Counted from the stretch's first letter, positions 8,957-32,560 are shown. The stretch is DNA of 64,000 nt from an uncultured Thermodesulfobacteriota bacterium (GCA_964566035.1 CAZMHH010000001.1:21130-85129), one strand, 5' to 3'. The notes: generated by a model not told the origin, from the letters alone. Made by a program: numbers and translations.

Positions 8957-9120
8957 CAATAAAAAAGCCGGGCTCCTTTTTTTCGGAAAAGAAGACCGGC
9001 TTATATCCAGTCATTTAACTCCTTTCCAAATTCAGGAGGCTAAAAGGCTTTCGCCTCTGCCCTTTCGACCGCGCTCCATAGGCTTAATTTATGCCTTTAG
9101 GAGAAAACAGCTCGGAGTCA
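8957..9120 (-). promoter_or_regulatory. Candidate riboswitch, copy A (aptamer about 9019-9120 plus intrinsic terminator 8957-9002) in the leader of porin gene 7411..8841
   Basis: On the minus strand it reads 5' CUCCGAGCUG…GCGCGGUCGAAAGGGCAGAGGCGAAAGCC…CCUCCUGAAUUUGGAAAGG. The terminator is AAGCCGG…CCGGCUU followed by U6. It is homologous to copies B to E. Confidence 0.5.
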
Positions 9121-9218
9121 GTCATTATTCATTGATGAGACTGCTGTTCATCTCTTGATATTAATGCATCATGTTAATTCCTGTTGCTTTAATGGATTAT
9201 ATACCTGCCCTTATACAA

Positions 9219-9381
9219 ACAAAAAAAGCTACTGCCCTGTCTGGAAAGGCAATAGCTTTTTAAATATGTATATTAAAAGCAGTTTTCCCTTTCCAAACAC
9301 GGGAGGTAAAGCCCTTTCGGATTTTACCCTTTCGGCTGCATTCTCATGGCATAAATTGCTTTAGAGATACCAGCTTGGGAA
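9219..9381 (-). promoter_or_regulatory. Candidate riboswitch, copy B (aptamer about 9285-9381 plus 12-bp terminator 9226-9259 and U7), tandem with and upstream of copy A
   Basis: The minus strand reads UCCCAAGCUGG…GCAGCCGAAAGGGUAAAAUCCGAAAGGGCUUUACCUCCCGUGUUUGGAAAGGG. Then comes the stem AAAGCUAUUGCC/GGCAGUAGCUUU followed by U7. Confidence 0.5.
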
Positions 9382-9452
9382 TTATTTATAATAATGTATA
9401 GCACGTTGAGTTTAAATAGTCAAGTTTTTTTAACTTTTTTTCTGTATTGGCA

Positions 9453-10283
9453 TCATCCTTTATAAATAATAGTGCCAACATGTTCTCCCTCAAGGGCTTT
9501 TGTTAAATTACCCTCTTCAAGCCCGTTGATGATCTGAATACTGTCCATGACCTCGCTGTTCATCAGAATATCCAGACAGGGTCTTTCAATAATCAGGTCG
9601 TCGAAATCTCTCTCAATAAGTTCATTGACGCTAATTGTAGGAATAAATTCAGCACTATCATTTTTTTTTGGATCATCAGAATAAAGCCCATTCTCATCTT
9701 TAACCATTATACACTGTTTTGCTCCGATTAAATTGGCAAGCAGAACAGTACCGGCATCGGTGCGGTGTTGAGGAACTCGTCCGTCTTTTGATGGGATTGA
9801 AAAGAAATCATACGGTGGCATGCCCTGCATCACCGGAATGCAGCCCTCTGCAAAATAAGTATAGAGCCTGATAATCTCATGCTCATCTATGCAGATTCCG
9901 CCATGTGTAGAAAGAAGCATCGACAGCAAAAGCGCATTCTGCTCCGACACAGAGCTTCCAAATTTGGCAATCACGCCTGTAGGCATGCCCATTTCAATTC
10001 CGATGGCATAAATATGCCTGCTGCGGGTCCCTCCCCCTGTTGTAATAAGCATCTTGTGCTTCTTTTTGCACTCGGCAATCTCTTTTATAATCTTAGGCAG
10101 TGCCTTAACCCCCCTGTCACAGATGGACTGCCCGCCTATCTTAAGCACTGTCACATCCGGAAACAGTCTCTGCTGTGGCGAATATTCCAAACCCTTGAGG
10201 AAAGTTTTACTGATAAGGCTTTCTCCCATAAGACGGCTCTTAACATGAAGTCGCCGCCCGTCTTTATCTCGAACAAGTGACAT
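9453..10283 (-). CDS. Amino-acid-kinase-fold protein (UMP kinase / molybdenum-storage-protein MosA/MosB-like)
   Basis: VLKIGGQS motif of the amino acid kinase family. Last gene of the Mo/W transporter operon. Confidence 0.55.
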   Translation of the reverse strand: MSLVRDKDGRRLHVKSRLMGESLISKTFLKGLEYSPQQRLFPDVTVLKIGGQSICDRGVKALPKIIKEIAECKKKHKMLITTGGGTRSRHIYAIGIEMGMPTGVIAKFGSSVSEQNALLLSMLLSTHGGICIDEHEIIRLYTYFAEGCIPVMQGMPPYDFFSIPSKDGRVPQHRTDAGTVLLANLIGAKQCIMVKDENGLYSDDPKKNDSAEFIPTISVNELIERDFDDLIIERPCLDILMNSEVMDSIQIINGLEEGNLTKALEGEHVGTIIYKG

Positions 10284-10314
10284 AGTATATTATCCCTATT
10301 GTTAAATAAACGGC

Positions 10315-10527
10315 TTACTTTTCACTGCAGCCGTCCTTAAGCGGCTCTGCTTTCAAAAACACAAGTTCAGCGCCTACTTCCTGTGCAATGGTCTCAATCT
10401 CTTTTTTTCGGAAATGATCCGCATATACCGAAAGATCCACATCGCTTACGGCAACAATCCGGAAACGGGGCTTTTTCTCCCCCTTGTCAACCTTAAGCCT
10501 CTCTCTGTAAAATATTTTTCCTGCCAT
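10315..10527 (-). CDS. Small hypothetical protein (70 aa)
   Basis: Sits in the operon between the kinase-fold gene and the ABC ATPase. No motif recognised. Confidence 0.3.
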   Translation of the reverse strand: MAGKIFYRERLKVDKGEKKPRFRIVAVSDVDLSVYADHFRKKEIETIAQEVGAELVFLKAEPLKDGCSEK

Positions 10528-10683
10528 AACTGTTCACCTTTCCTTTAATAAGGTTTATATAACTGCTTACATATATAGGCTTAAAGTTATATAATGTCAA
10601 CAGAAAATTTAAATAATGATGGGGCATAAGAAATAAAAATTACCCAAAATACGTACTTTGCCTGTTTACATGGACATATTTAT

Positions 10684-11724
10684 CTACATAGCCCAAAGGG
10701 AGCGAAGTTTAAGAATGCCGTGCACCGTCTGCCCCTGCCGGACATTCAGGGCATCAAAGTGCTGCAGTGCCATCTCAACACGCAGGGATTCGGAATCGAC
10801 CTTCAACAACACATGGACAGACTCGCCTGCTATGCTGATATCCGTGATAACCCCTTCAAACCTGTTGATTGGTGGACCAGGGGCTCTACATCCGGAAATA
10901 TATACATCATAGGGAAGAATCGCCACCCGGTTTACGGGTCTGCCTTCATCAGGTATCAGCAGTTTGATTCCTGCCCATTGAACCTCAACCAGTCCGTTAT
11001 CCAGTGATACACAGCTTTTGCATGTCAGCACATTGGGTTTTTCAAGAAACCCCTGCCCATGAGTCATAGGCGCATGCATGACATCCTCTGTTTTCCCGAC
11101 ACTCTCTATCTTCCCCTCATTAATCACTGCGATGCGATCAGCCAGTTCCCGTGCCTCGGCAAGGTCATGGGTGACAAAAAGCGTGGTCACCCCGAGCTTC
11201 TTCTGCTGTTTCTTAAACTCCTGCCGAAGATACCGGGATGTTCTGAAATCCAGCCCTGAAAACGGTTCATCCAGCAGCAAAATTTCAGGCTTGCACGCAA
11301 CCGCCCTGGCAAGCGCAACCCGCTGTTTCTCTCCGCCACTCAGTTTGTCAGGGTAGCGGTTCCGCAGGGATTCTATCCTGAAAAGCGACAAAAGCTCTTC
11401 TGTCCGGGAAAGATTTTCCTTAAGGTTTTTTTTTGTCGGTTTGAGAGCAAGCATCAGATTCTGTTTGACCGTTAAATGGGGAAAAATCAGTTTATCCTGA
11501 AACACATAGCCCACCCTGCGGCGCTGTGCCGGCAGCCGGTCAACCGGTGTGCCGTAAAACAAAACACTGCCGATGTAAGGGGCAAGCCCTGCCACAACAT
11601 TGAGAAGGGTTGTTTTGCCCGCACCCGATGGACCAACCATTACAAGAAGCTCTCTGTCGGCAATCTCGAGACTTACCCTGTTCAGGACATAGTTGCTGAT
11701 CTCTTTAAACATAATTCCGGACAT
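10684..11724 (-). CDS. modC: ABC transporter ATP-binding protein, molybdate/tungstate type (ModC/WtpC-like) with C-terminal MOP/TOBE domain
   Basis: Walker A GPSGAGKTT, ABC signature LSGGEKQRVALAR, Walker B LLLDEP, and a C-terminal about 130 aa TOBE-like domain. Confidence 0.75.
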   Translation of the reverse strand: MSGIMFKEISNYVLNRVSLEIADRELLVMVGPSGAGKTTLLNVVAGLAPYIGSVLFYGTPVDRLPAQRRRVGYVFQDKLIFPHLTVKQNLMLALKPTKKNLKENLSRTEELLSLFRIESLRNRYPDKLSGGEKQRVALARAVACKPEILLLDEPFSGLDFRTSRYLRQEFKKQQKKLGVTTLFVTHDLAEARELADRIAVINEGKIESVGKTEDVMHAPMTHGQGFLEKPNVLTCKSCVSLDNGLVEVQWAGIKLLIPDEGRPVNRVAILPYDVYISGCRAPGPPINRFEGVITDISIAGESVHVLLKVDSESLRVEMALQHFDALNVRQGQTVHGILKLRSLWAM

Positions 11725-12521
11725 TATACCCCTCCAGCAACAGTCAAAGCATTTTTCCTTGATCTGCCCAGCATTTTAATGATTAGCAGGAGAGCAAACC
11801 CGCTCATCAGAAGCAGCCAGGCACATGCCAGCGCCAGTCCCAATTCACCGCTGCTGATATTGAGATATACTGAAACCGGCAGCGTTGCGGTCTTGAAACG
11901 AGTTGCGCCCGCAACCATCAGCGTAGCGCCAAACTCACCCAGCGCCCTTGCCCAGGCAAGCACAGCGCCGGTTAAAATCCCCTGCCATGCCAGAGGCAGG
12001 GTAATATACATGAAAATCTGCCATCTTTCAAGCCCGAGCGTAAGCCCTGCCATTTCATACCGATCGTTCACCCCCTCAAAAGCAACTTTTGAACTTCTGA
12101 TAACAATCGGAAGACAGATAAATGTCTGCGCAACAATTGCCCCGAGCGGTGTAAACACTACATGAATGCCCAGACGAAAAAGACTTCCCCCCAGCCAGTC
12201 CTGTCCGAATAGAAACAGAAGCCCGATACCCGCAACAAGAGGTGTCATAACCAGCGGCAGATCAAGCAGGGTATCAATAACCGGTTTAAACGGAATTTTA
12301 CGCCGAGCCAGTATGTATGCAGACGGAACACCAAGCAGAAGCGATGCAACCACCGCAGCAAGTGATGTCAGCAGGCTGAGTCTTAAAGCAAAAAGGGTCT
12401 CCTTTGAGCTCAATGCCCTAACGATTTCCACAGGAGAAACATGAAACAGGATTGCCGCAAGCACGCCGCAAACAAACAGTGTAGAAACTATTAAAGGAAT
12501 CACTATTAAAAATCGTTTCAT
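11724..12521 (-). CDS. modB: ABC transporter permease, molybdate/tungstate type (ModB-like)
   Basis: Six-TM profile and EAA-like loop (GATRFKTATLPVSV). The stop overlaps the start of the ATPase gene. Confidence 0.7.
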   Translation of the reverse strand: MKRFLIVIPLIVSTLFVCGVLAAILFHVSPVEIVRALSSKETLFALRLSLLTSLAAVVASLLLGVPSAYILARRKIPFKPVIDTLLDLPLVMTPLVAGIGLLFLFGQDWLGGSLFRLGIHVVFTPLGAIVAQTFICLPIVIRSSKVAFEGVNDRYEMAGLTLGLERWQIFMYITLPLAWQGILTGAVLAWARALGEFGATLMVAGATRFKTATLPVSVYLNISSGELGLALACAWLLLMSGFALLLIIKMLGRSRKNALTVAGGV

Positions 12522-12603
12522 AGATCAAAAGTTAGAAGATGTAAGAAACTATATACGGGTTGTAATGTAAAATAAAATACTGCTTGATAATTAAAATACC
12601 CTG

Positions 12604-13326
12604 TTATGCAGACCTGCTGCAAAACCGCTCCCATCCCATGAGATGCGCCGCTCCGGCTATAGTTGTGCCATAAAAAATAGTCGGTTTTGCTGATAAAAAG
12701 CTGGTGATAGTATCATTGACCAGCACGGTTCCGGTAACAAGCAGAATATCCGCCCATTCAACAGCCTCATCTGTTTTTTCAGGTCCCTCGATAGATATTC
12801 CGAATTTTTCTGTCCCGATATTTTGTTTATCCATATCCAGCACCCGGATGTTGAAGATAGATGAGAGAGATTCAATCATTCGGGGCTGAAATCCAATCTG
12901 TGTTATTTTTACAATTCCATAATGCTCGCTGATATATTTGGTCAGAACATTTGCACACTCCTTCGGAGATTCATCCTTACAATGAACCGTGCCTTCTATC
13001 AAGCCCAGACTTCGCAGCACCGCATTCAGCGTTGCCACAAACAGAGCCCTTCTGAAATTGTTTCGAAGCTCCATTTTTAAGACATCATTGATACTCCCGC
13101 TGAAATCTCCATAATGATCGGTAAATGCCTGCCCGAAAGCCCCTTTGAAATCCGCCTGCATCAGGAATTCTTTGCCCTGCTGCAGTGGAAAATCCTTATC
13201 TTCCGGATCACCTATGGCTTCCTTTATTGTCAATGCCCGCGCGGTAACTGTAATATGTTCATCTGAAAGATTATTCCTTAAACACACTTCCCTCAGTTTT
13301 TGTCTCAGTATTTCATAAATATCCAT
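12604..13326 (-). CDS. DUF364/DUF4213-like Rossmann-like domain protein (putative metal-chelation fold)
   Basis: Paralog of 13604..14380 (…ILLVTGTVLVN…). The likely start is the internal MDIYEIL codon, which has a good RBS. The ORF track extends it to 13356. Confidence 0.45.
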   Translation of the reverse strand: MDIYEILRQKLREVCLRNNLSDEHITVTARALTIKEAIGDPEDKDFPLQQGKEFLMQADFKGAFGQAFTDHYGDFSGSINDVLKMELRNNFRRALFVATLNAVLRSLGLIEGTVHCKDESPKECANVLTKYISEHYGIVKITQIGFQPRMIESLSSIFNIRVLDMDKQNIGTEKFGISIEGPEKTDEAVEWADILLVTGTVLVNDTITSFLSAKPTIFYGTTIAGAAHLMGWERFCSRSA

Positions 13327-13339
13327 AAAATTATTTCCC

Positions 13340-13563
13340 TTCAAGTTAGCTCGCAACTGGTAGCTGGTAATGTAATATAACCTTCGGTTTGCTTCGCATG
13401 TAACCCTGGTGAAACAAAATCATAAAAGGTTTCACAGGACAAGCATGATACATAGCTCATAGTTAAATCAAAACCCTATCGTGGTCGTAATCGTAATCGC
13501 TATCGAAATCGGTATCGGTATCGTTTTATAATGTGTTTCGGTGCGCGCGGCGCAACCTACAAC
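13340..13563. repeat. Composite intergenic repeat block (agctcgcaactggtagctggt; atcgtggtcgtaatcgtaatcg… hexamer-periodic run; GC palindrome ggtgcgcgcggcgcaacc)
   Basis: Sub-motifs recur at 18765-18861 (in reverse orientation), at 24463-24495, and at 30686-30703 (ggtgcgcacggcgcac). Confidence 0.5.
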
Positions 13564-13603
13564 TGCATGTTCCATAAAACAGTGCTGAATGGTGCATCAT
13601 TTT

Positions 13604-14380
13604 TTAGTTGCCCTCCAAAACAAGGTTGACCTTTTTAGAATATTTCATAAAAAACCGTGTGCCGCCCGCCTCACTGACCACACGCAGAATCGCAGGAACA
13701 TCATTAGCCACAACACCTGAAAGATGGGTTATCCCCCGTTTTCTGAAAATACCCGGCACCATCGGTGTAGAAGGACCCAAAACCGCCTTGACCCGGCAGC
13801 CGGATGCATAGTCTGCAAGATGATCAAAGCTTTGGTTGACCAGAGAGGTTGCCGTAATAATTACCACAGAACAGGAAGGCAGGAGTTCACCTGCTTTTTC
13901 TTCAGGATAAAGCCCTTCGGCTCTGGAGATGTTCTTTTCAAAAATAATCAACTCGCCTGCCTGCTGCCGGATGACCGGAACAAGTGGTCCGAAGAAACCG
14001 ACCATGCCGACCCGGTCTTGCTTTGTCAGCGAAACTGCATCCAGAAAATCCCCTTGCAGGCTCTTAAAATCCTGCTGCAGTTTCCTTATTTCATCCGGGG
14101 TATTTAACAGCGCATTTGCAGCCGCCAGTCCGACCCCCCTCTCAAGCATCGACGCCGAAGACATATATGGCAACACATCCCGAACCGGGCTTCCGGCAAC
14201 AGGTCTTTTCCCCTGAAATACTGTACACCCTGTTTCCAGCACATCTCGAACCGTGCCGGCAAGCCCGACACTGCCGGTATCAAGCTGCACAGCCGTATAG
14301 CCCAAGCCGATCCGGACATCTGCAACCTTTATATCACTCGCTTTTTCAAGGGCAGCGGCGGTTACGTCTTCAAGGATCAT
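13604..14380 (-). CDS. DUF364/DUF4213-like Rossmann-like domain protein, first gene after riboswitch copy C
   Basis: Likely start MILEDVT at 14380, with RBS AAAGGGGA. Contains a VIITATSLVN Rossmann-like motif. The ORF track extends it to 14476, into the terminator hairpin. Confidence 0.45.
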   Translation of the reverse strand: MILEDVTAAALEKASDIKVADVRIGLGYTAVQLDTGSVGLAGTVRDVLETGCTVFQGKRPVAGSPVRDVLPYMSSASMLERGVGLAAANALLNTPDEIRKLQQDFKSLQGDFLDAVSLTKQDRVGMVGFFGPLVPVIRQQAGELIIFEKNISRAEGLYPEEKAGELLPSCSVVIITATSLVNQSFDHLADYASGCRVKAVLGPSTPMVPGIFRKRGITHLSGVVANDVPAILRVVSEAGGTRFFMKYSKKVNLVLEGN

Positions 14381-14412
14381 ATCTGTTTCCCCTTTTCTAT
14401 TGCTGTAATAAT

Positions 14413-14592
14413 AAACAAAAAAAGCCCCTGCCTTATAAATCTGTGGATGAAAAAGGCAGGGGCTTGGCTTAGGCAAAAACCACTGTTGTTTGAGTCCCTA
14501 TCCAACCACGGGAGGCAAAGCCCTTTCGGGTATTGCCCTGTCGGCTGCATTTCATAGACTATTATAGCCGTTAGAACTGACAGCTTTGGGAG
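14413..14592 (-). promoter_or_regulatory. Candidate riboswitch, copy C (aptamer about 14493-14592, 12-bp terminator 14424-14465 plus U-run) in the leader of the DUF364/ModBC operon
   Basis: The minus strand reads CUCCCAAAGCUG…GCAGCCGACAGGGCAAUACCCGAAAGGGCUUUGCCUCCCGUGGUUGGAUAGGGA. Then comes AGCCCCUGCCUU…AAGGCAGGGGCU followed by U7, 30 nt before the RBS. Confidence 0.55.
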
Positions 14593-14675
14593 TTTTTAAT
14601 CATTTTAATACGCTATTTGATTATAATATGATTATCAACATATATTTAACGCTTGACAGATTCATATTTTTAGCA

Positions 14676-14704
14676 TATTATAATCTAATAATAATTACTT
14701 GTCA
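14676..14704 (-). promoter_or_regulatory. Sigma70 consensus promoter (TTGACA-N17-TATAAT) driving the copy-C leader
   Basis: The reverse complement of 14676-14704 is TTGACAagtaattattattagatTATAAT. Confidence 0.5.
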
Positions 14705-14742
14705 ACTCTATTTGTAGTTTTTTTAAAATTAAAAATAATGCA

Positions 14743-15195
14743 GTGATGAAAACAATCAGAGAAGCGTTACATACTATTAAAAAAATCAGGGGATTTAAAA
14801 CTGACGCTGATCTTGCAGAGGATATGGACATATCACTGAACACCATGAGAAGCTGGATTAGAAACGAATCTATTACAAAACAGATCATTGCCTACTGCGC
14901 AAAACATAACATAAGCATTGATGAAACCCTGCTTGATATCCGCATTTTTAACAAAGACCGCTGCGAGCTTTGCGCTGCAAGACTGCAATGCGATGAATAC
15001 CGCAGAGCCACCAGCAATTCGCTGGTCGTTAACGAGGATATGTTCAGCCCCAAAACAATCCTGATCAACACGCATCTGACGGAAAGTATCTCATGGAAAA
15101 TGTTTCAACAGAATATCCTCAAATCAGAATGTGCCTTTGACCTTGAATTGATAGACAGAATACTGATTGAACTGCATCAGACGACTTTGGATTAG
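14743..15195 (+). CDS. Putative HTH protein (phage CI-repressor-like N-terminal HTH)
   Basis: The N-terminal 60 aa resemble the CI-repressor HTH (…DADLAEDMDISLNTMRSWIRN). Divergent from the riboswitch-C promoter. Confidence 0.35.
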   Translation: MMKTIREALHTIKKIRGFKTDADLAEDMDISLNTMRSWIRNESITKQIIAYCAKHNISIDETLLDIRIFNKDRCELCAARLQCDEYRRATSNSLVVNEDMFSPKTILINTHLTESISWKMFQQNILKSECAFDLELIDRILIELHQTTLD

Positions 15196-15275
15196 TGCGC
15201 TATGAATGGTTTTTTTTTTTTAAATGTATTTTTTTTATATAAACAAAAGTTGATTACATTTATTTCGGAGGCATT

Positions 15276-15878
15276 ATGAAAAAAGAGTTGTTTATTTTAG
15301 CGATAATATGGTCCTTGTTATTTGCAATGGGCTGCGATCCCACCTATACTGACACCAGGGACGGACAGGTCTATAAAACTGTAAAAATAGGAAGTCAATG
15401 GTGGATGGCTGAAAACATGAATTACGAAATGGATAACAGTTGGTGCTTTGAAGACGAACAGGGTAACTGCGACACCTATGGCAGGTTATATGCGTTTGAA
15501 ACAGCGCTCACTGCATGCCCTTCAGGATGGCGTCTGCCAGACAATAAAGACTGGAACATCCTAATCGACTATCTGGGAGCCATAGAAACTGCGGGCGGCA
15601 GGATGAAGGCTACAGGAACCCTTCAGGATAGCTCCGGTTACTGGCTAAAACCGAATACAGGAGCCACAAATGAAAGCGGATTTTCAGGTTTGCCGGGTGG
15701 CTCACGCAGCGGCTTTGGACATTTCAACCGGTTGGGAAGCGACGGCTACTGGTGGAGCGCTACAGACAACCAGGGGGGTAGCGCCATACTGTGGCGGCTG
15801 AGTAACAGAAGCAGCAGCATATCCGAGGACAGCTACCTGAAACAATACGGACTTTCTGTGCGCTGCATCAGGAATTAA
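15276..15878 (+). CDS. Lipoprotein with FISUMP domain (paralog of 2736 and 19023)
   Basis: Lipobox LLFAMGC and YGRLYAFETA..CPSGWRLP motifs. Confidence 0.6.
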   Translation: MKKELFILAIIWSLLFAMGCDPTYTDTRDGQVYKTVKIGSQWWMAENMNYEMDNSWCFEDEQGNCDTYGRLYAFETALTACPSGWRLPDNKDWNILIDYLGAIETAGGRMKATGTLQDSSGYWLKPNTGATNESGFSGLPGGSRSGFGHFNRLGSDGYWWSATDNQGGSAILWRLSNRSSSISEDSYLKQYGLSVRCIRN

Positions 15879-15928
15879 GAACAATTATTGTTAGTGGTTT
15901 ATGTTCAATGAGTTATGATTGAAACCGG

Positions 15929-16744
15929 TTAATGCTTATTTTGTCCAAGCCTCAAAAAACCGAAACTTTCAAACACTGCAACCGCTTCTTCTGATGCAAG
16001 ATACTCCTGCAATGCAGTGGCGGCGTCAATATTTTTTGTAGCTGAAAGCACGGCAGCCGGCACAATCTCTTCATCATAATATTTATCAGCAATCACAATC
16101 ATTGCTACACTCTCACTGAACTGAAAAGCGTCTGCTCGTCCAACAATGGAAGCATCCACAACGCCTTGAGAAACGTACATTGCAAGCTGTTTTACCGTCG
16201 CGCCGTAAACGACAACATTAGCCTCAACCCCCTCCATAATCCCAGCCCGCTGAAGAATGGTCTGAGCAGTTTTCCCAAACGCCATCGCTTGAGAATCACC
16301 CAGCGCCAGTCTAAGTCCGGGCTTTGCCAGATCATGTAGAGATTTAATCTCCCCCTCTTTTGATCTGTTTACAGCAATGACCGGCGTATGCGAAACAACA
16401 GGTTTCCAGCTCACAATTTTGCCCTGCTCATCTAACTGCTGTATATAGATAAATGAACCCGGCAGAAAAACATCACCTGTGCCGGAAACGGTTATTTTTG
16501 TCATCAGTTTCCCGCTCCCGGCATAATCCACTATAACAACGTGCCCTGTTTTTTTCTGAAAAATCTCCATAAGCCGGTCAACCGGATGTCTCAGCCCAGC
16601 CCCGGCATACAGGCGCAACTCCGCGGCAACAGAAGCTGTCGCATTAACCGACAGGTAAAGCATCAAAAGGGCGCAAACACCGGTTAAAATGAATCTTGTC
16701 ATAGGGGCAGCGCCCGACTGTTTTTTTCTAATTTTATTTCTCAT
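15929..16744 (-). CDS. modA: Molybdate/tungstate ABC transporter periplasmic binding protein (ModA/WtpA-like)
   Basis: Signal peptide and PBP type-2 fold motifs (YAGSGKL, GDVFLPG). The likely start is MRNKIRKK with RBS GGAGGA. The ORF track extends it to 16822, overlapping the porin gene. Confidence 0.6.
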   Translation of the reverse strand: MRNKIRKKQSGAAPMTRFILTGVCALLMLYLSVNATASVAAELRLYAGAGLRHPVDRLMEIFQKKTGHVVIVDYAGSGKLMTKITVSGTGDVFLPGSFIYIQQLDEQGKIVSWKPVVSHTPVIAVNRSKEGEIKSLHDLAKPGLRLALGDSQAMAFGKTAQTILQRAGIMEGVEANVVVYGATVKQLAMYVSQGVVDASIVGRADAFQFSESVAMIVIADKYYDEEIVPAAVLSATKNIDAATALQEYLASEEAVAVFESFGFLRLGQNKH

Positions 16745-16776
16745 AGAATACTGTCCTCCATCGTTTACTTGTTCTA

Positions 16777-18216
16777 TCACAGGAGCCCTTTGCTGAACCG
16801 GTATTCCCACTGAACAAAGCACCAGTTTGCCGGTCGATTGGACGCCATTGTTTTGGCAAACGTATCAGGCCAAAACCGCCCGAATCCTGCCATGACCCTG
16901 TTGCCGTACGGCAGTCTGAGCGTTGCGACAACATCAAACTCTTTGCCCACGCTTTTTCCGCTGCTGCCCGTCCTGTCCCGGTATATCTGCTGGTTCAGGT
17001 ACCAGGCATCCTTCCGTTCAGCAAGCATAAACTTATGAAATTCAAATTTTATATCAAGCCACGATGCCGGACTGAGCTCAATATTTGCCTGCAAATCCTG
17101 AAGGTTCATCCAGTGAAACAGATTCATCCTGCCATACATCTGATCCCTTGCGCCAAAGGCGCCATGAAAGGTTCGGCACACCCCGTCATCGGGATTGTCA
17201 TCTCCTGAAGCGTAACTGTATTCTATGCTCAACCGGGGGTTAAACCTCATCGGAAGATTGTATGCCAACATCAGGTGATAACCGTATGCCCTCAGGTTGT
17301 CTTTTGCGAAATCGCCCCGTTCCTGAAGCAGTGTCGCGTCAAAATCAAAACGCTTGATATTTTTGCCGGAAATTCTCACCCCCGCATACCATGAATCAAG
17401 TGCGCCCTGCTTTCGATAAGTAACACGGCTGCCGTCGGGCTGAAGATAGTAACCCTGCTTTTCCCCCCTGTAACGTCGATGATGGTCTCTTTTGGTAAAC
17501 ACCATCGGTTCGACCGATATCTCAAAGGTTTTCTGTAGAACATCATACCTGGCATAAAGACCGATGCTCTCAAATTCATGTCGATGCCTCAGACTGAACC
17601 TTTGGACATCATGGAGCATATTGCGGCCGTAATAGATATCAACAAACCCCCGCTGATGCTTCCATGATATCTTGGCGGCATCCCAAATATAACGCCCTGA
17701 ATTGCCCCACTGACCGGGCCCAAACACCCGGTTGTTGCCGTAGGCGATTAACTGTCTGCCTATTTTAAAACCAAGCCCTGCATCAAATAGATTTTTAACC
17801 TCGATAAATGTCGTATAGAGTTCCCAGTAATCCTTGTTCGGGTTGTTCTCAAATTGATGGGTATTGTTGTAAAACGCTGAATCCGGCAGTGCGCTGCCCC
17901 AGCAGGTGGAATGCTGTCCCCACAGGGCAATATGTATTTTATCGGTCGGATACCAGTCCACCCCCGCCCTGAAGCGTCCCAGCAGAAAACCGTCATCAGT
18001 TTTTCCCCTTGCAGGTCTTTCCCCGTAGTATTTCTGATTGAAATTATCATAAAATTCATACCTCAGCCGGAGATTTGAACTAAATGTGAGTCTCTTTTTT
18101 TCTGTTTCGCATGCGGACTGCTGTTTTGCCTGAAGCAAAGATGAACAGAGCAGCAACATGGCCATTAAAAAAATTACTGAACAGATTTTTTTTACTATAT
18201 TACATTGTGCCTTCAT
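16777..18216 (-). CDS. Outer-membrane beta-barrel porin (alginate-export/putative porin-like), first gene after riboswitch copy D
   Basis: Signal peptide, alternating amphipathic strands, and a C-terminal …RFSKGLL. Immediately upstream of modA-like. Confidence 0.5.
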   Translation of the reverse strand: MKAQCNIVKKICSVIFLMAMLLLCSSLLQAKQQSACETEKKRLTFSSNLRLRYEFYDNFNQKYYGERPARGKTDDGFLLGRFRAGVDWYPTDKIHIALWGQHSTCWGSALPDSAFYNNTHQFENNPNKDYWELYTTFIEVKNLFDAGLGFKIGRQLIAYGNNRVFGPGQWGNSGRYIWDAAKISWKHQRGFVDIYYGRNMLHDVQRFSLRHRHEFESIGLYARYDVLQKTFEISVEPMVFTKRDHHRRYRGEKQGYYLQPDGSRVTYRKQGALDSWYAGVRISGKNIKRFDFDATLLQERGDFAKDNLRAYGYHLMLAYNLPMRFNPRLSIEYSYASGDDNPDDGVCRTFHGAFGARDQMYGRMNLFHWMNLQDLQANIELSPASWLDIKFEFHKFMLAERKDAWYLNQQIYRDRTGSSGKSVGKEFDVVATLRLPYGNRVMAGFGRFWPDTFAKTMASNRPANWCFVQWEYRFSKGLL

Positions 18217-18240
18217 ATTTTTCCTTTATCTTGCCAGATA

Positions 18241-18410
18241 TAAAAAAAAACGCTGCCTTATCTATCGGTGGAAGAACATGGCAACGGCTTTAATAAAAAC
18301 CCCTGTTGCGTGAATCCCTATCCAACCACGGGAGGCAAAGCCCTTTCGGACAAAGCCCTGTCGGCTGCTCCTCATGGGCTGTTATGACCGTTAGAAGAAA
18401 ACAGCTTCAG
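18241..18410 (-). promoter_or_regulatory. Candidate riboswitch, copy D (aptamer about 18313-18410, terminator 18251-18287 plus U9) in the leader of the porin/modA unit
   Basis: Nearly identical to copy C through the CCGACAGGGCUUUGUCCGAAAGGGCUUUGCCUCCCGUGGUUGGAUAGGGA core. A 7-bp stem and U9 lie just before RBS AAAGGAAAAAU-ATG. Confidence 0.55.
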
Positions 18411-18505
18411 AACCTACAATCAGTTTATGCTACTAAAGTATTATATTTTGACTATTAATATCCATATAAAATTCCATTCAGTCACATTATGCTAAATTGT
18501 AATCT

Positions 18506-18534
18506 AATATTAATCACCTGTCAACTCTTTTTTT
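18506..18534 (-). promoter_or_regulatory. Sigma70-like promoter (TTGACA-N17-TACAAT) driving the copy-D leader
   Basis: The reverse complement is TTGACAggtgattaatattagatTACAAT. It lies in the same position as the copy-C promoter within the 250-bp duplicated block. Confidence 0.45.
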
Positions 18535-20492: not shown

Positions 20493-20507
20493 TTACCGAG
20501 ACACCTT

Positions 20508-24451: not shown

Positions 24452-24459
24452 AAACTATC

Positions 24460-24562
24460 CTGATGGTAGCTCGTAGCTCATAGCTCGTAGCTGGTGGCAA
24501 AAGCAAAAAAAAACAACTGCCCCGGACAGCCATTTTATTGGTTCCGGATTGTCCTGGTTAGG
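24460..24562. repeat. Composite intergenic repeat block (gtagctcgtagctcatagctcgtagctggtgg plus R element copy 2)
   Basis: The hexamer-periodic tagctNgtagct run is related to 13345-13372 and 18848-18861. The R element matches 18850-18885 and 30915-30958. Confidence 0.5.
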
Positions 24563-26163: not shown

Positions 26164-26167
26164 TATT

Positions 26168-28552: not shown

Positions 28553-28577
28553 CTTTATTCTCCTTTTCAAAAATTTA

Positions 28578-29078
28578 TCACTTTTTAGCAGCCATAACTT
28601 CACCAGCCGATGATACTGCCTCGACAATTTTGGTATATCCTGTACACCGGCATATATTGCCCTCGAGCCCCAGACGAATCTCTGCTTCTTTTGCCTTCGG
28701 GTTATTCTCAAGAATATCCACACTCTTCATAATCATACCGGATGAGCAGAACCCGCACTGTATGGCTCCCTTTTCAACAAATGCCTGCTGAACCGGATGA
28801 AGTTTACCGTTTTTCTCAAGGCCGCCGACAGTATAAATCTTCTTGCCATCCATCATGGCAGCAAGTACCAAACATGAATCAATTGCTTTTCTGCCGGTGG
28901 GATATTTTTTATCTTCTACAAGCACCGTGCAGGCGCCGCATTCACCTCTGCCGCAGCAGTGTTTAACATCCGTTAATTTCAACTGATCTCTAATTACATG
29001 CACCAGAGTATCGCTGTCATCAACGGCAATATTGTATTCCTCCCCATTAATAAACAGGGTTATGGGACGTTTCTTCAT
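28578..29078 (-). CDS. [2Fe-2S] iron-sulfur small subunit of molybdenum hydroxylase (CoxS/XdhC-type)
   Basis: Plant-type CGRGECGAC motif and a second 2Fe-2S motif CGFCSSG…CRCTGY. Confidence 0.85.
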   Translation of the reverse strand: MKKRPITLFINGEEYNIAVDDSDTLVHVIRDQLKLTDVKHCCGRGECGACTVLVEDKKYPTGRKAIDSCLVLAAMMDGKKIYTVGGLEKNGKLHPVQQAFVEKGAIQCGFCSSGMIMKSVDILENNPKAKEAEIRLGLEGNICRCTGYTKIVEAVSSAGEVMAAKK

Positions 29079-29112
29079 AATGACTTCTCCTGTAACTGTT
29101 ATTATTTAAAGA

Positions 29113-29982
29113 TTATGTGTTACATGCAGCCTGCAAAACCCGTTTTACAACAACACCGGATACGTGTTTGCGATATTCTGCTGTTGAACGGACATCATCT
29201 ATCGGTTTGACATTTTGGGGAATTATGTCCGCAATCTCAGTTAGAAGTTTATCGGTAATTGCTGTATTTGTCATCATATCTTCTGCTTTTTTGATACGAA
29301 TGGTGGTCGGCGCTACAGCACCCACGGCGATTCGGGCAGCGCTGCATTTTTTCCCGTTCATTTCAAGACAGACTGCAGCGTTGACTTTCGAAAGGTCAAA
29401 GGTCATCCGGGTAATCCGGCTGAATGCGGAGCACTGGTTTTTATCTGCTGGAGGCAGTTTCAATTCAACTGCAATCTCGTCCACGCTTCTATTAATTTTT
29501 CCATAGTCAATAAAAAAATCATCAATGGGAACCTCTCTTTTTCCTGATGTACTCTGCAACACAACGGTCGCGCCCAGCGCCAGCGCAGCGCAGCAACAAT
29601 CGCCTGAGGGAGAAGCCCTTAAAATATTGCCAAGAACAGTTGCCGAGTTTCTGATTTGAGGCGAACCGAGTGCTGATGCCGCCTGCCACAGGGCATTGTA
29701 GTGCTTCTTCACTTTGGCATCCTGCACCAACTGATACACAGAGGTCATCGCCCCGATGTTCAACCCTTCAGTATTTGAATAGTTTATGTAATCAAGACCC
29801 GGTATTTCACCCAGTGCAAGAACATATTTTGCCTTCAATCCCTTTTGAAACATGATCATAAGGTCTGTGCCACCGGCGAGAACTGCAGCCTTCTCACCAT
29901 ACTGCGAAGCCAAACCAACTGCTTCTTCAATGCTTTTCGGCTTAAGCAGCTCAAATTCCGGCAGAATTCGGCTATTACTCAT
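29113..29982 (-). CDS. FAD-binding medium subunit of molybdenum hydroxylase (CoxM/XdhB-type)
   Basis: FAD_binding_5 motifs (AGGTDL) and a CO-dehydrogenase flavoprotein C-terminal domain. Confidence 0.8.
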   Translation of the reverse strand: MSNSRILPEFELLKPKSIEEAVGLASQYGEKAAVLAGGTDLMIMFQKGLKAKYVLALGEIPGLDYINYSNTEGLNIGAMTSVYQLVQDAKVKKHYNALWQAASALGSPQIRNSATVLGNILRASPSGDCCCAALALGATVVLQSTSGKREVPIDDFFIDYGKINRSVDEIAVELKLPPADKNQCSAFSRITRMTFDLSKVNAAVCLEMNGKKCSAARIAVGAVAPTTIRIKKAEDMMTNTAITDKLLTEIADIIPQNVKPIDDVRSTAEYRKHVSGVVVKRVLQAACNT

Positions 29983-30899
29983 TTTGTTTCCTCCTTAATC
30001 GTTTTTGATTTGGGTATTTACATAGATTCCATTAGCGGCTTACCTGTTTTATTGCCCTACACTTTATGCAACAGTCATCACCCCCTTTCGAGCGTAAACA
30101 CAACCATCATTATCTCATTATCTTTATTCAAGCCGCATTTATAGTAGTGAATAAAAAATACCTATGTCAGTCTTATTTATTTTAAATAGGATTTCGGGTG
30201 ACGACAATAATGGTTCAGGACAGTTATCAACAAGGTGATTATGTCCCCTGACTTTGGCGTTCAATAGATACTCCTTGACTTATGCACATTCCATACGGAC
30301 ACACTGACACCAGTCAATTAAAGGGGGTTCAGATATGATGGACCTGTAAAAAGTCTAAAAAGCTCCCCCTCTCCCTGAAATGAACTGATAATTTCCGCTC
30401 CTGGCTGGATCAAGCTGTTAAGGAAATGCACAAAAACAGGCTAAAGCTGAAGATATGACGTAACTACTCAGCCCATAGACGATCAGTTTGCCCTGTCAAA
30501 GGTTTCTTCAAAGCAAAAGAGCATAATTTTTATCACCTCACCAAGCCCCGGGAAGAGCTATTAAGCAAAGGCAATAAAAACAGCTGTCGACTTCCAGCAA
30601 AGGGGTTTTTTATGTTTAAGGCGTAAGCCTTTTATCGGTTTTGCTGACATCTGGCTGCTGATAGCTGACAGCTCCTTTTTATTCGGTGCGCACGGCGCAC
30701 TATCCCTTACCGCTTCCCTCTTACTTAAATCTTAAAACCTAAAACTTTATTATTACCCTTACCCCTCCTGTTTTTATTAATCCTTCATCCTTTGTTTCCC
30801 CCGCCTGCCCCATGAAACCTTCATTGATTCTGTTTCATTGGGGTTACCCTCTTTTGCTTTTGTTTAACAGGGGCCTGCCCTGTTAAATCTGTTTTGATT

Positions 30900-32165
30900 T
30901 TATTTAAACAGGCGAACTGACCCGGACATACGTCTTTTGGGTTCCGGCTCGTCCGGTTCAGCTCTATTGTAATATTGCCCAATATCATAGTTCATCTGGG
31001 CAAAGGGAGTGGGATAGTGTTCAGCAATTTTTCTTTTTTTGTAATAGACACACCACGTACCATTAAGCAGCCTGCGCACTTCCACGCGCGCCATCGCATA
31101 TGAAATGCGGTCAACTCCCGGTGAAATTTTAATTCCCACACCGTTTATAGTAACGGTATTATTGCAATCAACCGTTCTCTCATAATAACGGCTGCAAATT
31201 CGACATAGATCAACATGTTCAGGAACTTCCCGCCATGCCTGTCTCCTGCTCTGCGGTGCAAAGGAACATCTGTAATTGTAGTCATAGAGAAACTGTCTAT
31301 CAAGAAACAGATTGCCCTCCCTTATGTTTTGAATTGCATGTTTTGCTATCTCATCTGCAAGCAGGCTTTCAAGTCTAAAAAGAAGATTTACAGCATTTCT
31401 TCTTGGAATATGCTCATGTTTGATGCCAAGTTCTTCAAGCGCCCGTTCAACAGGGTTTGTTTCAGGGAACCCCTGGAGTTCTTCCTTTATGGTCATGTTT
31501 TTTTTTCTTACTTTTACTGCATTTCGGCTATGCTGACAAAGAGATTGCGGAATTCCGCATCTAATAAGCATTTTTTTTAAAAGCCATAAATAACCGTCTG
31601 TAGTTTCTGTTGCAAAGAAATTAGCACACAAACATCTTAATGTGGTCATATCCACAGCAGCCATAAAACAACACTCAGGATGTGGATCAGGAAACCATTT
31701 TTGGGTCAGCCCTCCCCAGAGTACCATACCCCCTTCCTTTCCGGACAGGCTGTAAGATTTGGTGCGTCTAACTCTTTTCTGCACATGCTTGGGGCCGGGA
31801 TTTTCAGAAGCTAATATTTTTCTGACCGTTTCCCGACTGACTTCAATTTGATGATTTTGAAGAAGTTTTTCAGAAATCTGTGTATAGTTCAGTCCACGAT
31901 AAAGGGATTGAGAAAGAGATATGATGAATTTTCTCATATCATCATCAATCGCAAGAGCAGGTTTTTTGCCTTTATTGCCATGTTGCAGCCCTGACAGCCC
32001 TTTTTCCTTAACTGTTTTTTTAAGTCGTTTTGCCTGCCTGTAACTGATGCCTATACATTCGGCTGCCTCGCGCAATGTAATGCAACCATTAAGCACTTTT
32101 TCGATATAGTAAAATCTATTCTGCTGTTTTTTATCCGGTTTTATTTTTTCCATGATAATATTCAA
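30900..32165 (-). CDS. IS-like HTH plus integrase-core (DDE-type, ISNCY/IS481-like) transposase homolog. The second catalytic Asp is apparently replaced.
   Basis: N-terminal HTH (ITLREAAECIGISYRQAKRL), and central D…E residues aligned with the paralog at 33617. Terminal inverted repeats were not found. Confidence 0.4.
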   Translation of the reverse strand: MNIIMEKIKPDKKQQNRFYYIEKVLNGCITLREAAECIGISYRQAKRLKKTVKEKGLSGLQHGNKGKKPALAIDDDMRKFIISLSQSLYRGLNYTQISEKLLQNHQIEVSRETVRKILASENPGPKHVQKRVRRTKSYSLSGKEGGMVLWGGLTQKWFPDPHPECCFMAAVDMTTLRCLCANFFATETTDGYLWLLKKMLIRCGIPQSLCQHSRNAVKVRKKNMTIKEELQGFPETNPVERALEELGIKHEHIPRRNAVNLLFRLESLLADEIAKHAIQNIREGNLFLDRQFLYDYNYRCSFAPQSRRQAWREVPEHVDLCRICSRYYERTVDCNNTVTINGVGIKISPGVDRISYAMARVEVRRLLNGTWCVYYKKRKIAEHYPTPFAQMNYDIGQYYNRAEPDEPEPKRRMSGSVRLFK

Positions 32166-32348
32166 AATTATAGCCGATCAAATTATATTATAATTTAGCT
32201 TGATAAAATTGATTTGTAAATACCTTTATATCTTTGATAATTGCAATCTGAATATGTCCCAAGTGAAAACAAAAAGATAAATATATGACATTTTCCTTAT
32301 GCATAAATGTGTCATTATCATTTGGTAGTAAATTTATCCATGAAGGGT

Positions 32349-32376
32349 TTGACAAATGAAAAAGGTATGGTACAAT
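32349..32376 (+). promoter_or_regulatory. Sigma70 promoter (TTGACA-N16-TACAAT) driving the copy-E leader
   Basis: The sequence is TTGACAaatgaaaaaggtatggTACAAT, about 25 nt upstream of the conserved 5' CUCCAAGCC of the element. Confidence 0.5.
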
Positions 32377-32403
32377 TTAAAATAAATATTAAATATACTT
32401 ATC

Positions 32404-32560
32404 TCCAAGCCGTTGTTTTCTAAGGTCACAGAGACTATGATGCGCGGCCGAAAGGGTTTTGTTCGAAAGGACACTGCCTCCCGTGGCTGGAAAGGAGAAT
32501 AGGCACAGGAATTATAAAAGACCTGTCCCCGGTTCTGCCGCGGACAGGTCTTTTTTTTGG
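32404..32560 (+). promoter_or_regulatory. Candidate riboswitch, copy E (aptamer 32404-32505, 10-bp terminator 32519-32551 plus U8) in the leader of the MoCF_biosynth-domain gene
   Basis: The plus strand reads CUCCAAGCCG…GCGCGGCCGAAAGGGUUUUGUUCGAAAGGACACUGCCUCCCGUGGCUGGAAAGGAG. Then comes AGACCUGUCC…GGACAGGUCU followed by U8 and RBS GAAAGGGAAAAU-ATG. Confidence 0.55.

What the first reader, a model, noticed from the sequence alone, without database searches (positions are those of the whole stretch)
8957..32560. Five-copy conserved structured leader RNA (riboswitch candidate) upstream of Mo/W uptake and cofactor genes
A core of about 100 nt recurs five times, at about 9019-9120, 9285-9381, 14493-14592 and 18313-18410 (functional on the minus strand) and at 32404-32505 (plus strand). 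Its consensus is 5'-CUCC(N)AAGCYG…AUGNNGCRGCCGAMAGGGC-N5-7-CCGAAAGGRCUUUGCCUCCCGUGGYUGGAWAGG-3'. It contains two tandem C/GAAA/G tetraloop-type hairpins and a conserved CCUCCC. Every copy is intergenic, oriented with a downstream gene, and followed by a strong intrinsic terminator (8-12-bp GC stem plus U6-U9) that ends 20-40 nt before the RBS. That is the classic aptamer-plus-expression-platform layout of a transcription-terminating riboswitch. The controlled genes are two outer-membrane porins with a ModA-like binding protein, a DUF364-ModB-ModC operon, and a MoCF_biosynth-domain protein, which matches a molybdenum/tungsten cofactor regulon. It could be a divergent member of the Moco/Wco riboswitch class or a new class with the same regulon. 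I cannot confirm identity with the published Moco consensus from memory.
Basis: partly seen in the sequence, partly recalled or inferred. Interest (0 to 1): 0.88.

Follow-up and report, generated by a model that had tools for sequence, protein, structure and literature searches.

The report
Five known molybdenum/tungsten-cofactor riboswitches
The five repeated leader RNAs are real, but they are ordinary members of the published molybdenum/tungsten-cofactor (Moco/Tuco) riboswitch family, in its form that lacks one stem, and they most likely switch off metal-uptake and cofactor genes by stopping transcription early.

Summary
Five copies of a ~125-nt structured RNA lie at the stated places, each intergenic, co-oriented with the downstream gene and followed by a terminator-like hairpin. 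They are not a new class: all five match Rfam RF01055 (Molybdenum/Tungsten riboswitch aptamer) over the full model, at 40.6-82.2 bits against a gathering score of 36, and nothing else in the window matches any Rfam family. All five lack the optional P3 stem. Regulski et al. (2008) described this subgroup and proposed that it senses the tungsten cofactor. That paper also reported tandem copies and terminator expression platforms. With 14 related aptamers from nine other loci, 87% of cells pair and 23 of 33 pairs show changes on both sides. In every copy the terminator's 5' arm can pair instead with the 3' side of the aptamer, which fits an OFF switch. Two details need correction. The first 'GAAA hairpin' is the P2/P4 junction left where P3 is missing. 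The tandem pair controls a five-gene operon that ends in a TupA-like binding protein. The one mildly new point is that this porin/diheme/TupA-like operon is preceded by the riboswitch in 8 of 11 related loci, in tandem or triple in four of them. Novelty of the finding is low.

The parts
9395..9423 (-). Promoter-like site for the tandem leader (TTGACT, 17 nt, TATACA), placing the transcript start at about the first aptamer
   Evidence: Read from the sequence. This is a consensus match only.
9270..9392 (-). Aptamer A: RF01055, P3-lacking, first of a tandem pair
   Evidence: 82.2 bits, E 2.1e-18, model 1-135. Own model R1: 101.4 bits.
9221..9261 (-). Terminator A (9-16-bp stem plus U7). Its 5' arm and loop (GCCUUUCCAGAC) are complementary to the aptamer's UUUGGAAAGGG.
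   Evidence: scan; folds. The antiterminator is the minimum-energy fold before the 3' arm is made.
9002..9129 (-). Aptamer B: RF01055, P3-lacking, second of the tandem pair. Its core deviates (CCUCCUGA instead of CCUCCCGU).
   Evidence: 52.9 bits, E 8e-10. R1: 83.9 bits.
8961..9001 (-). Terminator B (AGCCGG.CUUCUUUUCC / GGAG.CCGGCU plus U6). Its 5' arm pairs alternatively with GGAAAGGAG...GACUGG of the aptamer's 3' side.
3379..8841 (-). Five-gene operon under the tandem pair. Porin_O_P-family porin 8841-7411; GEGP diheme protein with CarboxypepD_reg domain 7384-5573; 134-aa protein 5507-5103; PKD+Lcl_C protein 5093-4209; TupA-like periplasmic binding protein 4191-3379.
   Evidence: Gaps between genes are 9-65 nt and no convincing internal terminator is found. 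The gene order is conserved in related loci.
14677..14705 (-). Promoter-like site for leader C (TTGACA, 17 nt, TATAAT; 12 of 12 matches)
14479..14603 (-). Aptamer C: RF01055, P3-lacking
   Evidence: 50.3 bits, E 4.7e-9. R1: 92.7 bits.
14417..14465 (-). Terminator C (12-13-bp GC-rich stem plus U7)
   Evidence: -26.1 kcal/mol.
10684..14380 (-). Operon C. DUF4213/DUF364 protein 14380-13604 (true ATG at 14380); DUF364 protein 13356-12604; ModB-like permease 12521-11724; ModC/WtpC-like ATPase with TOBE domain 11724-10684.
18496..18524 (-). Promoter-like site for leader D (TTGACA, 17 nt, TACAAT)
   Evidence: Leader D is paralogous to leader C over promoter, leader, aptamer and terminator.
18298..18424 (-). 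Aptamer D: RF01055, P3-lacking, the weakest match
   Evidence: 40.6 bits, E 3.3e-6 (gathering score 36). R1: 78.4 bits.
18242..18286 (-). Terminator D (CGUUGCC/GGCAGCG stem with a large, partly paired loop, plus U9)
   Evidence: -17.2 kcal/mol for the region.
15929..18216 (-). Operon D. Alginate_exp-family outer-membrane porin 18216-16777; ModA-type molybdate-binding protein 16822-15929.
   Evidence: TIGR01256 modA: 101.6 bits, cut-off 62.5.
32349..32376 (+). Promoter-like site for leader E (TTGACA, 16 nt, TGgTACAAT)
   Evidence: Read from the sequence.
32391..32513 (+). Aptamer E: RF01055, P3-lacking
   Evidence: 66.1 bits, E 1.1e-13. R1: 101.9 bits.
32517..32558 (+). Terminator E (13-bp stem plus U8)
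   Evidence: -26.6 kcal/mol.
32574..33605 (+). 343-aa protein with a MoCF_biosynth (MoeA domain III / MogA-like) domain

Best explanation
The five elements are aptamers of the known Moco/Tuco riboswitch family (Rfam RF01055), all of the published P3-lacking subtype. Each is transcribed from its own sigma-70-like promoter, except the second copy of the tandem pair, which depends on read-through from the first. Each is followed by an intrinsic terminator. When the metal-pterin cofactor is plentiful it binds the aptamer and locks P1 and P5. That frees the terminator to form, and transcription stops before the genes (OFF switch). When the cofactor is scarce, the 3' side of the aptamer (P5 3' strand, J5/1, P1 3' strand) pairs with the terminator's 5' arm as an antiterminator, and the uptake and cofactor genes are transcribed. 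The two copies in series before the porin operon act as two successive checkpoints, which should give a steeper response. What is shown: family membership, the fold with covariation, the gene context, and the presence of terminators and competing pairings. What is inferred: the OFF logic, and the ligand. Following Regulski 2008, the missing P3 points to the tungsten form (Tuco), and the TupA-like gene in the tandem-controlled operon agrees with that. Whether the ligand is the W or the Mo form is not settled here. My estimates for the sub-claims: RF01055 membership about 0.97, terminator OFF mechanism about 0.85, Tuco rather than Moco as the ligand about 0.55. The overall confidence given (0.85) is for membership plus the OFF-terminator mechanism, leaving the metal form open.
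For:: five full-length RF01055 hits, 40.6-82.2 bits against a gathering score of 36, with P3 (about model positions 59-73) deleted in all; no other Rfam match at E<=0.1; on the family structure, 19 aptamers (5 from the window, 14 from related loci) pair in 87.3% of cells, against 39-50% when partners are slid. 23 of 33 pairs show changes on both sides, and the covariation score is 0.483 against 0.267 in shuffles (0 of 500 shuffles reach it); a GAAA tetraloop on P4 and a CUAA/(U/C)AUG receptor in P2 are present in all five copies; a terminator hairpin plus U-tract follows each copy; before the 3' arm is transcribed, the minimum-energy fold pairs the terminator's 5' arm with the P5/P1 3' region or the sequence just 3' of it, in all five; the same GUUUGGAAAG / CUUUCCAAAC complementarity recurs in a triple tandem in L010; the downstream genes are Mo/W transport and cofactor genes, including TupA-like, ModA, ModB, ModC and MoCF_biosynth proteins. 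(PMC2408646): the P3-lacking subgroup (58 of 176), the Tuco hypothesis, terminator platforms, and tandem and triple arrangements are already described. (PMC11725836): five P3-lacking Tuco riboswitches in Eubacterium limosum, and genes behind two terminator-type copies rise under W limitation.
Against: No ligand binding or regulation was measured for these copies. According to a 2024 review the class still had no solved structure, and cofactor binding has not been shown directly. Antiterminators are clear for copies A and B but rest on shorter, less obvious pairings for C, D and E. Terminator D is weak. The outer P1 pairs of the Rfam model are poorly kept (3-5 of 8 sequences). On the ligand: the transporter parts are ModA/ModB-type by NCBIfam, and the TupA-like protein scores below the TupA cut-off (247.9 against 400 bits). 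The only cofactor enzymes seen in the window are xanthine-dehydrogenase-family Mo hydroxylases, and no W enzyme was found among the ORFs scanned. Copy B deviates at normally conserved core bases (CCUCCU-GA).
Confidence: 0.85

Rival explanations
1. Same riboswitch family and mechanism, but the ligand is the molybdenum cofactor (Moco), both metal forms, or a shared precursor, not specifically the tungsten cofactor.
For: Operon D encodes a ModA-type binding protein above its NCBIfam cut-off, and operon C a ModB-type permease. A homolog of the Azotobacter molybdenum storage protein lies next to the operons. Two xanthine-dehydrogenase-family Mo hydroxylase gene sets with MocA-like and YqeC genes lie at 19.9-30 kb. 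No W enzyme was found among the window ORFs scanned. Regulski 2008 itself lists exceptions, such as Pelobacter carbinolicus with a P3-lacking RNA before a predicted molybdate transporter.
Against: All 19 aptamers of this gene neighbourhood lack P3. In 2008 this form tracked W-related genes in 17 of 19 organisms. The tandem-controlled operon ends in a binding protein whose only NCBIfam match is TupA. Mod-type transporters can also carry tungstate. Only 64 kb of the genome is visible.
Confidence: 0.35
2. A new riboswitch class, or a strongly divergent relative, that merely shares the Mo/W regulon.
For: None beyond the missing P3 stem and some deviations in the core (GGAUAGG in C and D, CCUCCU in B).
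Against: All five score above the curated RF01055 threshold over the full model. All helices and the tetraloop/receptor pair of the family are present and covary. The P3-less form is part of the family as first published.
Confidence: 0.01
3. The aptamers act mainly at translation or as ON switches, and the hairpins are ordinary terminators of upstream genes or incidental.
For: RF01055 members with ribosome-binding-site sequestering platforms exist, for example E. coli moaA and three of five in E. limosum. Terminator D is weak, and terminator B ends about 105 nt before the RBS.
Against: Each hairpin lies between a promoter-like site with its aptamer and the gene, not after an upstream gene on the same strand. 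The RBS is not part of P1 in any copy. The terminator 5' arms are complementary to the aptamer 3' sides. Uptake genes are expected to be repressed, not induced, by the finished cofactor.
Confidence: 0.05
4. A dispersed non-regulatory repeat (REP- or MITE-like element) with no function in gene control.
For: It is multi-copy within 24 kb. Leaders C and D are clear duplicates including their promoters. Transposase-like genes flank copy E.
Against: The copies are only 53-74% identical yet keep pairing through compensatory changes. Every copy is upstream of and co-oriented with Mo/W genes. Orthologous porin operons in other organisms carry the element at the same position.
Confidence: 0.01

Closest known systems
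Moco/Tuco riboswitch, Rfam RF01055, P3-lacking subgroup (Regulski et al. 2008, PMC2408646)
   Same: The P1-P2-P4-P5 architecture, the GAAA tetraloop with its receptor, and the conserved GCC...AGGG and CCUCCCGU..UUGGAAAGG core. P3 is absent. The location is the 5' leader of Mo/W transport and pterin-cofactor genes, with intrinsic-terminator platforms.
   Different: Nothing at the level of the RNA. The gene sets differ: outer-membrane porins, a GEGP diheme protein and DUF364 proteins do not appear in the parts of the 2008 paper I read. Its Table 1, Fig. 2B shading and supplement were not available to me.
Tandem and triple Moco RNAs of Geobacter metallireducens and Syntrophomonas wolfei (Regulski et al. 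2008)
   Same: Complete P3-lacking units in series, with a terminator after each of the leading units, ahead of a transport and cofactor operon. The proposed effect is a more switch-like response.
   Different: Here the target is a porin/diheme/TupA-like operon. Related loci show one, two or three units before the same operon.
Five Tuco riboswitches of Eubacterium limosum (PNAS 2024, PMC11725836)
   Same: Five P3-lacking RF01055 copies in one genome. Some have terminator platforms that respond to W limitation, and they control tungstate uptake (TupABC) among other genes.
   Different: E. limosum is Gram-positive and has no porins. Three of its copies act on translation. Its regulon includes a W enzyme (WOR1) and iron transporters.
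E. coli moaA Moco riboswitch
   Same: Same family and an OFF response to the finished cofactor.
   Different: It has P3, it sequesters the RBS within P1 rather than using a terminator, and it ignores the tungsten form.

Membership tests
Rfam RF01055 (Moco/Tuco riboswitch aptamer) | Covariance-model score at or above the curated gathering score (36 bits) over the full model | tested here: met
   82.2, 66.1, 52.9, 50.3 and 40.6 bits, all covering model 1-135; no competing family.
Rfam RF01055 (Moco/Tuco riboswitch aptamer) | Helices P1, P2 (with inner P2b), P4 and P5 around a multistem junction, supported by covariation | tested here: met
   19 aptamers: 87.3% of cells paired against 39-50% with slid partners, and 23 of 33 pairs changed on both sides. 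P5 (2 bp) is invariant., 8 sequences on the Rfam alignment: 85% canonical, but the three outermost P1 pairs are weak. Caveat: these alignments are fitted to the model.
Rfam RF01055 (Moco/Tuco riboswitch aptamer) | GNRA (GAAA) tetraloop on P4 and a tetraloop receptor in the P2 bulge | tested here: met
   GAAA caps P4 in all five copies, and CUAA...(U/C)AUG flanks P2b in all five. One relative (L003 736-848) lacks the receptor. Such exceptions are known.
Rfam RF01055 (Moco/Tuco riboswitch aptamer) | Conserved junction nucleotides (GCC/AGGG at P2-P4; CCUCCCgU...UUGGAAAGG at P4-P5-P1) | tested here: met
   alignments. Deviations: copy B has CCUCCUGA, and copies C and D have GGAUAGG.
Rfam RF01055 (Moco/Tuco riboswitch aptamer) | Position in the 5' leader of molybdate/tungstate transport, pterin-cofactor synthesis or cofactor-enzyme genes, in the same orientation | tested here: met
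   TupA-like, ModA, ModB, ModC and MoCF_biosynth genes lie downstream. Promoter-like sites lie upstream.
Rfam RF01055 (Moco/Tuco riboswitch aptamer) | Gene control in response to the cofactor | not testable with these tools
   This needs reporter assays or 3'-end mapping. Only predicted terminators and antiterminators are available.
P3-lacking ('Tuco') subgroup of RF01055 | Absence of the P3 stem | tested here: met
   about model positions 59-73 are deleted in all five, leaving g...A. The same holds in all 14 related aptamers.
P3-lacking ('Tuco') subgroup of RF01055 | Association with tungsten-related genes or W use by the organism | tested here: inconclusive
   The TupA-like binding protein is in the tandem-controlled operon, but at 247.9 bits against a cut-off of 400. 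The other transporter parts are Mod-type. No W enzyme was found among the window ORFs scanned. The rest of the genome was not available.
Tandem riboswitch with independent expression platforms | Two complete aptamers in series on one leader, each followed by its own terminator, with no promoter between them | tested here: met
   Aptamers lie at 9392-9270 and 9129-9002, terminators at 9261-9221 and 9001-8961. No promoter-like site is found on the minus strand at 9215-9130.

The most novel reading that the evidence does not exclude
The RNA itself is not new. The evidence does leave open that the operon it guards is a new uptake route. That operon encodes a Porin_O_P-family porin, a GEGP diheme protein with a CarboxypepD_reg domain, a ~130-aa protein and a TupA-like binding protein. 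It could be an undescribed outer-membrane and periplasmic acquisition module for tungstate (or molybdate, or their thio-forms in sulfidic habitats) in Thermodesulfobacteriota-like bacteria. It is kept under one to three P3-less riboswitches in series and works together with a second riboswitch-controlled porin/ModA pair and a binding-protein-less ModBC transporter. I found no paper on a dedicated porin or a haem protein in Mo/W uptake, or on this protein family, in the searches I ran.
Probability: 0.4. Interest if true: 0.4.

Novelty: already known. Interest (0 to 1): 0.14.

Why it matters
For the riboswitch itself it matters little. Any standard Rfam-based annotation would label these five sites, and their variant form, tandem layout and terminator platforms were published in 2008. 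The practical value is annotation. It marks four transcription units, about 13 genes in the window, as a Mo/W cofactor regulon in an uncultured anaerobe. It flags two outer-membrane porins, a diheme protein and DUF364 proteins as candidates for Mo/W acquisition. A locus with five P3-less copies next to Mo hydroxylase genes and a Mo-storage homolog would also be a useful test case for the still-unproven idea that loss of P3 means tungsten specificity.

Tried and rejected
1. A blastn search of the tandem leader against plasmids found no match.
2. Scans of genome contigs and metagenome contigs with the porin as a single query gave only one relative each. The word-indexed protein search plus exact look-ups was needed to obtain more loci.
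3. MAFFT alignments of the aptamers (A1-A3) were out of register in P2 for several rows and were not used for pair counts. I used the cmscan alignments and a re-alignment to my own covariance model instead.
4. I looked for extra or degenerate copies. A permissive Rfam scan of the window and my own model on the window plus loci at E<=1 found none in the window. They gave only two chance-level hits in L006 and L013.
5. Porin loci L006, L012 and L013 have no RF01055 upstream, so the association is frequent but not universal.
6. I considered whether GACAGGG/GGAUAGG (copies C, D) against GAAAGGG/GGAAAGG (copies A, B, E) marks two ligand specificities. I rejected this as unsupported. C and D are recent duplicates, and the positions vary freely among relatives.
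7. A literature search for the GEGP diheme family found nothing. Two searches combining riboswitch, molybdate or tungstate, and porin turned up no paper on a riboswitch-controlled Mo/W porin among those I opened.
8. I could not name the source organism. The proteins come from an NCBI contig of 163,563 nt with no names on record. The nearest relatives are Thermodesulfobacteriota MAGs.

Full report
**Observation.** A gathering-threshold Rfam scan of the whole 64-kb window returns exactly five matches. All are to RF01055 (Molybdenum/Tungsten riboswitch aptamer, the 'Moco RNA motif') and all span model positions 1-135:
- 9392-9270(-): 82.2 bits, E 2e-18
- 32391-32513(+): 66.1 bits
- 9129-9002(-): 52.9 bits
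- 14603-14479(-): 50.3 bits
- 18424-18298(-): 40.6 bits, E 3e-6

The gathering score is 36 bits. A permissive scan at E<=0.1 adds nothing from any of the 4227 families. The repeat is therefore real, far beyond chance, and already has a name.

**Anatomy of the RNA.** The cmscan alignments show the family's features:
- the inner P1 helix;
- P2 with the CUAA/(U/C)AUG tetraloop-receptor bulge and the distal P2b hairpin;
- P4 capped by GAAA;
- the 2-bp P5 inside CCUCCCGU..UUGG;
- the AAAGG return into P1.

In every copy the optional P3 stem (about model positions 59-73) is deleted, leaving only 'g...A'. It is the P2-P4 junction that remains when P3 is missing. Only the second GAAA is a tetraloop. 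Copy B deviates at two normally conserved core bases (CCUCCUGA). Copies C and D have GGAUAGG instead of GGAAAGG. In a structure-guided alignment the five copies are 53-74% identical. C and D are the closest pair, and their similarity extends over promoter, leader, aptamer and terminator, so they are a duplicated regulatory cassette.

**Structure support.** On the Rfam alignment, the five copies plus three relatives give 85% canonical pairs, with compensatory changes in inner P1, P2, P2b and P4. The three outermost P1 pairs are poorly kept. I then built a covariance model from 19 aptamers, re-aligned them to it and counted pairs:
- 87.3% of 621 cells pair, against 39-50% when the 3' partners are slid by 1-3 columns and 76% in shuffles.
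- 23 of 33 pairs show a change on both sides.
- The covariation score is 0.483 against 0.267 in shuffles (0 of 500 shuffles reach it).

The alignment is fitted to the model, which favours the structure. The slid controls share that bias, however, and they fall far short.

**Expression platforms.** Near-consensus sigma-70-like promoters precede leaders C (12 of 12 matches), D (11 of 12) and E, and a weaker one precedes A. None lies between A and B on the minus strand. Every aptamer is followed by a hairpin plus U6-U9. Folded with their upstream flank, these regions give -17.2 to -26.6 kcal/mol, and D is the weakest.

I folded each transcript up to the point just before the terminator's 3' arm is made. 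In all five, the minimum-energy structure pairs the terminator's 5' arm with the aptamer's P5-3'/J5-1/P1-3' segment or the bases just after it. For A and B this antiterminator is long and obvious (UUUGGAAAGGG with CCUUUCCAGAC; GGAAAGGAG...GACUGG with CCGGUCUUCUUUUCC). For C, D and E it is shorter. The same GUUUGGAAAG/CUUUCCAAAC design recurs in a relative with three units in series. This is the standard layout of a transcriptional OFF switch: a ligand-locked aptamer lets the terminator form. The logic is inferred, not measured.

**Controlled genes.**
- **Tandem A+B** heads a tightly packed five-gene operon: a Porin_O_P-family porin (8841-7411), a GEGP-motif diheme protein with a CarboxypepD_reg domain (7384-5573), a 134-aa protein, a PKD+Lcl_C protein, and a TupA-like periplasmic binding protein (4191-3379). 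TupA is the binding protein's only NCBIfam match, at 247.9 bits, below the 400-bit cut-off.
- **C** controls a DUF4213/DUF364 protein, a second DUF364 protein, a ModB-type permease and a ModC/WtpC-like ATPase with a TOBE domain. The first gene starts at the ATG at 14380, not at the listed TTG. DUF364 next to molybdate or tungstate transporters is a known association.
- **D** controls an Alginate_exp-family porin and a ModA-type binding protein.
- **E** controls a 343-aa protein whose C-terminal half resembles MoeA domain III / MogA.

**Comparison with what is known.** Regulski et al. 2008 (PMC2408646) described this motif and its two forms. Of their 176 representatives, 58 lack P3. They reported that the P3-less form tracks tungsten-related genes, proposed that it senses the tungsten cofactor (Tuco), and noted terminator-type platforms. 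They also recorded several copies per genome (up to 15) and tandem or triple arrangements with a terminator after each of the leading units (S. wolfei, G. metallireducens). A 2024 study of Eubacterium limosum (PMC11725836) annotates five P3-less RF01055 'Tuco riboswitches' in one genome. Genes behind its two terminator-type copies rise when W is limiting. A 2024 review still calls the RNA 'of unknown structure'. The elements are regular members of the family, not a divergent branch or a new class.

**Ligand.** Whether these copies read the W form or the Mo form cannot be settled from the sequence.
- For W: all 19 aptamers in this gene neighbourhood lack P3, and the tandem-controlled operon carries the TupA-like protein.
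- For Mo, or for no discrimination: ModA- and ModB-type parts above their NCBIfam cut-offs; a close homolog of the Azotobacter molybdenum storage protein next door; two sets of xanthine-dehydrogenase-family Mo hydroxylase genes with MocA-like and YqeC genes at 19.9-30 kb; and no W enzyme among the window ORFs scanned.

I put Tuco at about 0.55.

**Related loci.** The porin has about 65 orthologs at 50-76% identity, mostly unnamed metagenome proteins and Thermodesulfobacteriota MAGs. Of 11 porin loci examined, including the window, 8 carry P3-less RF01055 directly upstream:
- one unit in L001, L005, L007, L009 and L011;
- two in the window, L003 and L008;
- three in L010.

L007 and L009 also have a further unit in front of the TupA-like gene. 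In L003 a 491-aa gene sits between the tandem pair and the porin. Ten of the 11 loci keep a ~600-aa CarboxypepD_reg-domain protein right after the porin, and most also keep the ~130-aa and TupA-like genes nearby. The GEGP diheme model was scored only on the window protein. L006, L012 and the distant L013 have no riboswitch. This conserved link is the only part of the locus that I could not find described. It is a lead about the proteins, not about the RNA.

**Verdict.** The interpretation as a Moco/Wco-type terminating riboswitch is supported. The claim of possible novelty is not. The finding is a correct rediscovery of RF01055 in its P3-lacking form, with a known tandem layout. Interest is low (0.14). 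The side lead on the porin/diheme/TupA-like operon deserves a modest follow-up.

Noticed in passing
window 3379-8841 (-); also L001, L003, L005-L012: A conserved operon is preceded by one to three P3-less RF01055 units in 8 of 11 loci. It encodes a Porin_O_P-family porin, a GEGP-motif diheme protein (two CxxCH motifs, CarboxypepD_reg domain, CFI-box C-terminus), a ~130-aa protein and a TupA-like binding protein. It is a candidate outer-membrane and periplasmic W/Mo acquisition module. I found no paper on the GEGP family.
   Followed up: partly
window 9453-10283 (-); also L006 1504-2334, L009 6813-7374, L010 6833-7401: A 276-aa AA_kinase-family protein is a close homolog of the Azotobacter vinelandii molybdenum storage protein (MosB E 1e-68, MosA E 3e-44; UMP kinases only about 1e-10). 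Only one subunit gene is present. It is preceded by a ~70-aa ORF (about 10525-10314) with its own promoter-like site. An AA_kinase-family gene of the same size (275-276 aa) also sits beside the porin operon in three other loci, but its likeness to the storage protein was not tested there.
   Followed up: partly
window 14605-14676 (-) and 18425-18495 (-): Between the strong promoters and aptamers C and D lie about 65-70 nt of leader that are conserved between the two paralogous cassettes. They contain AT-rich imperfect inverted repeats (for example TTGATAATCATATTATAATCAA). This could be a second promoter or an operator for a ModE-like protein regulator acting together with the riboswitch.
   Followed up: no
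window 10684-18216 and 3379-4191: The ABC transporter is split over three riboswitch-controlled units. ModB and ModC, without a binding protein, are in operon C. A ModA-type binding protein follows a porin in operon D. A TupA-like binding protein ends the tandem-controlled operon. No tupB or tupC gene lies beside the TupA-like gene. One permease/ATPase pair may serve two binding proteins.
   Followed up: no
window 2736-3329 (+), 15276-15878 (+), 19023-19877 (-), 4209-5093 (-): Three Fib_succ_major (FISUMP) domain proteins and one PKD+Lcl_C-domain protein are scattered next to or inside the Mo/W operons. Their function is unknown and the repeated adjacency is unexplained.
   Followed up: no
window 30900-32165 (-) and 33617-34831 (+): Two paralogous-looking ~400-420-aa proteins with winged-helix or HTH_29/HTH_32 N-termini (transposase-like) flank riboswitch E and its MoCF_biosynth gene. 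This small unit may have been moved or may sit in a mobile context.
   Followed up: no
window 19893-29982 (-): Two sets of xanthine-dehydrogenase-family molybdenum hydroxylase genes (803-aa and 851-aa large subunits, an FAD subunit) lie here with MocA-like NTP_transf_3 and YqeC accessory genes. They sit directly upstream of riboswitch D but have no RF01055 of their own.
   Followed up: no
L006 2335-3000, L012 2134-3000: Orthologous porin operons in these two loci have long upstream intergenic regions (about 670 and 870 nt) but no RF01055 at any threshold tried. What controls them is unknown.
   Followed up: partly
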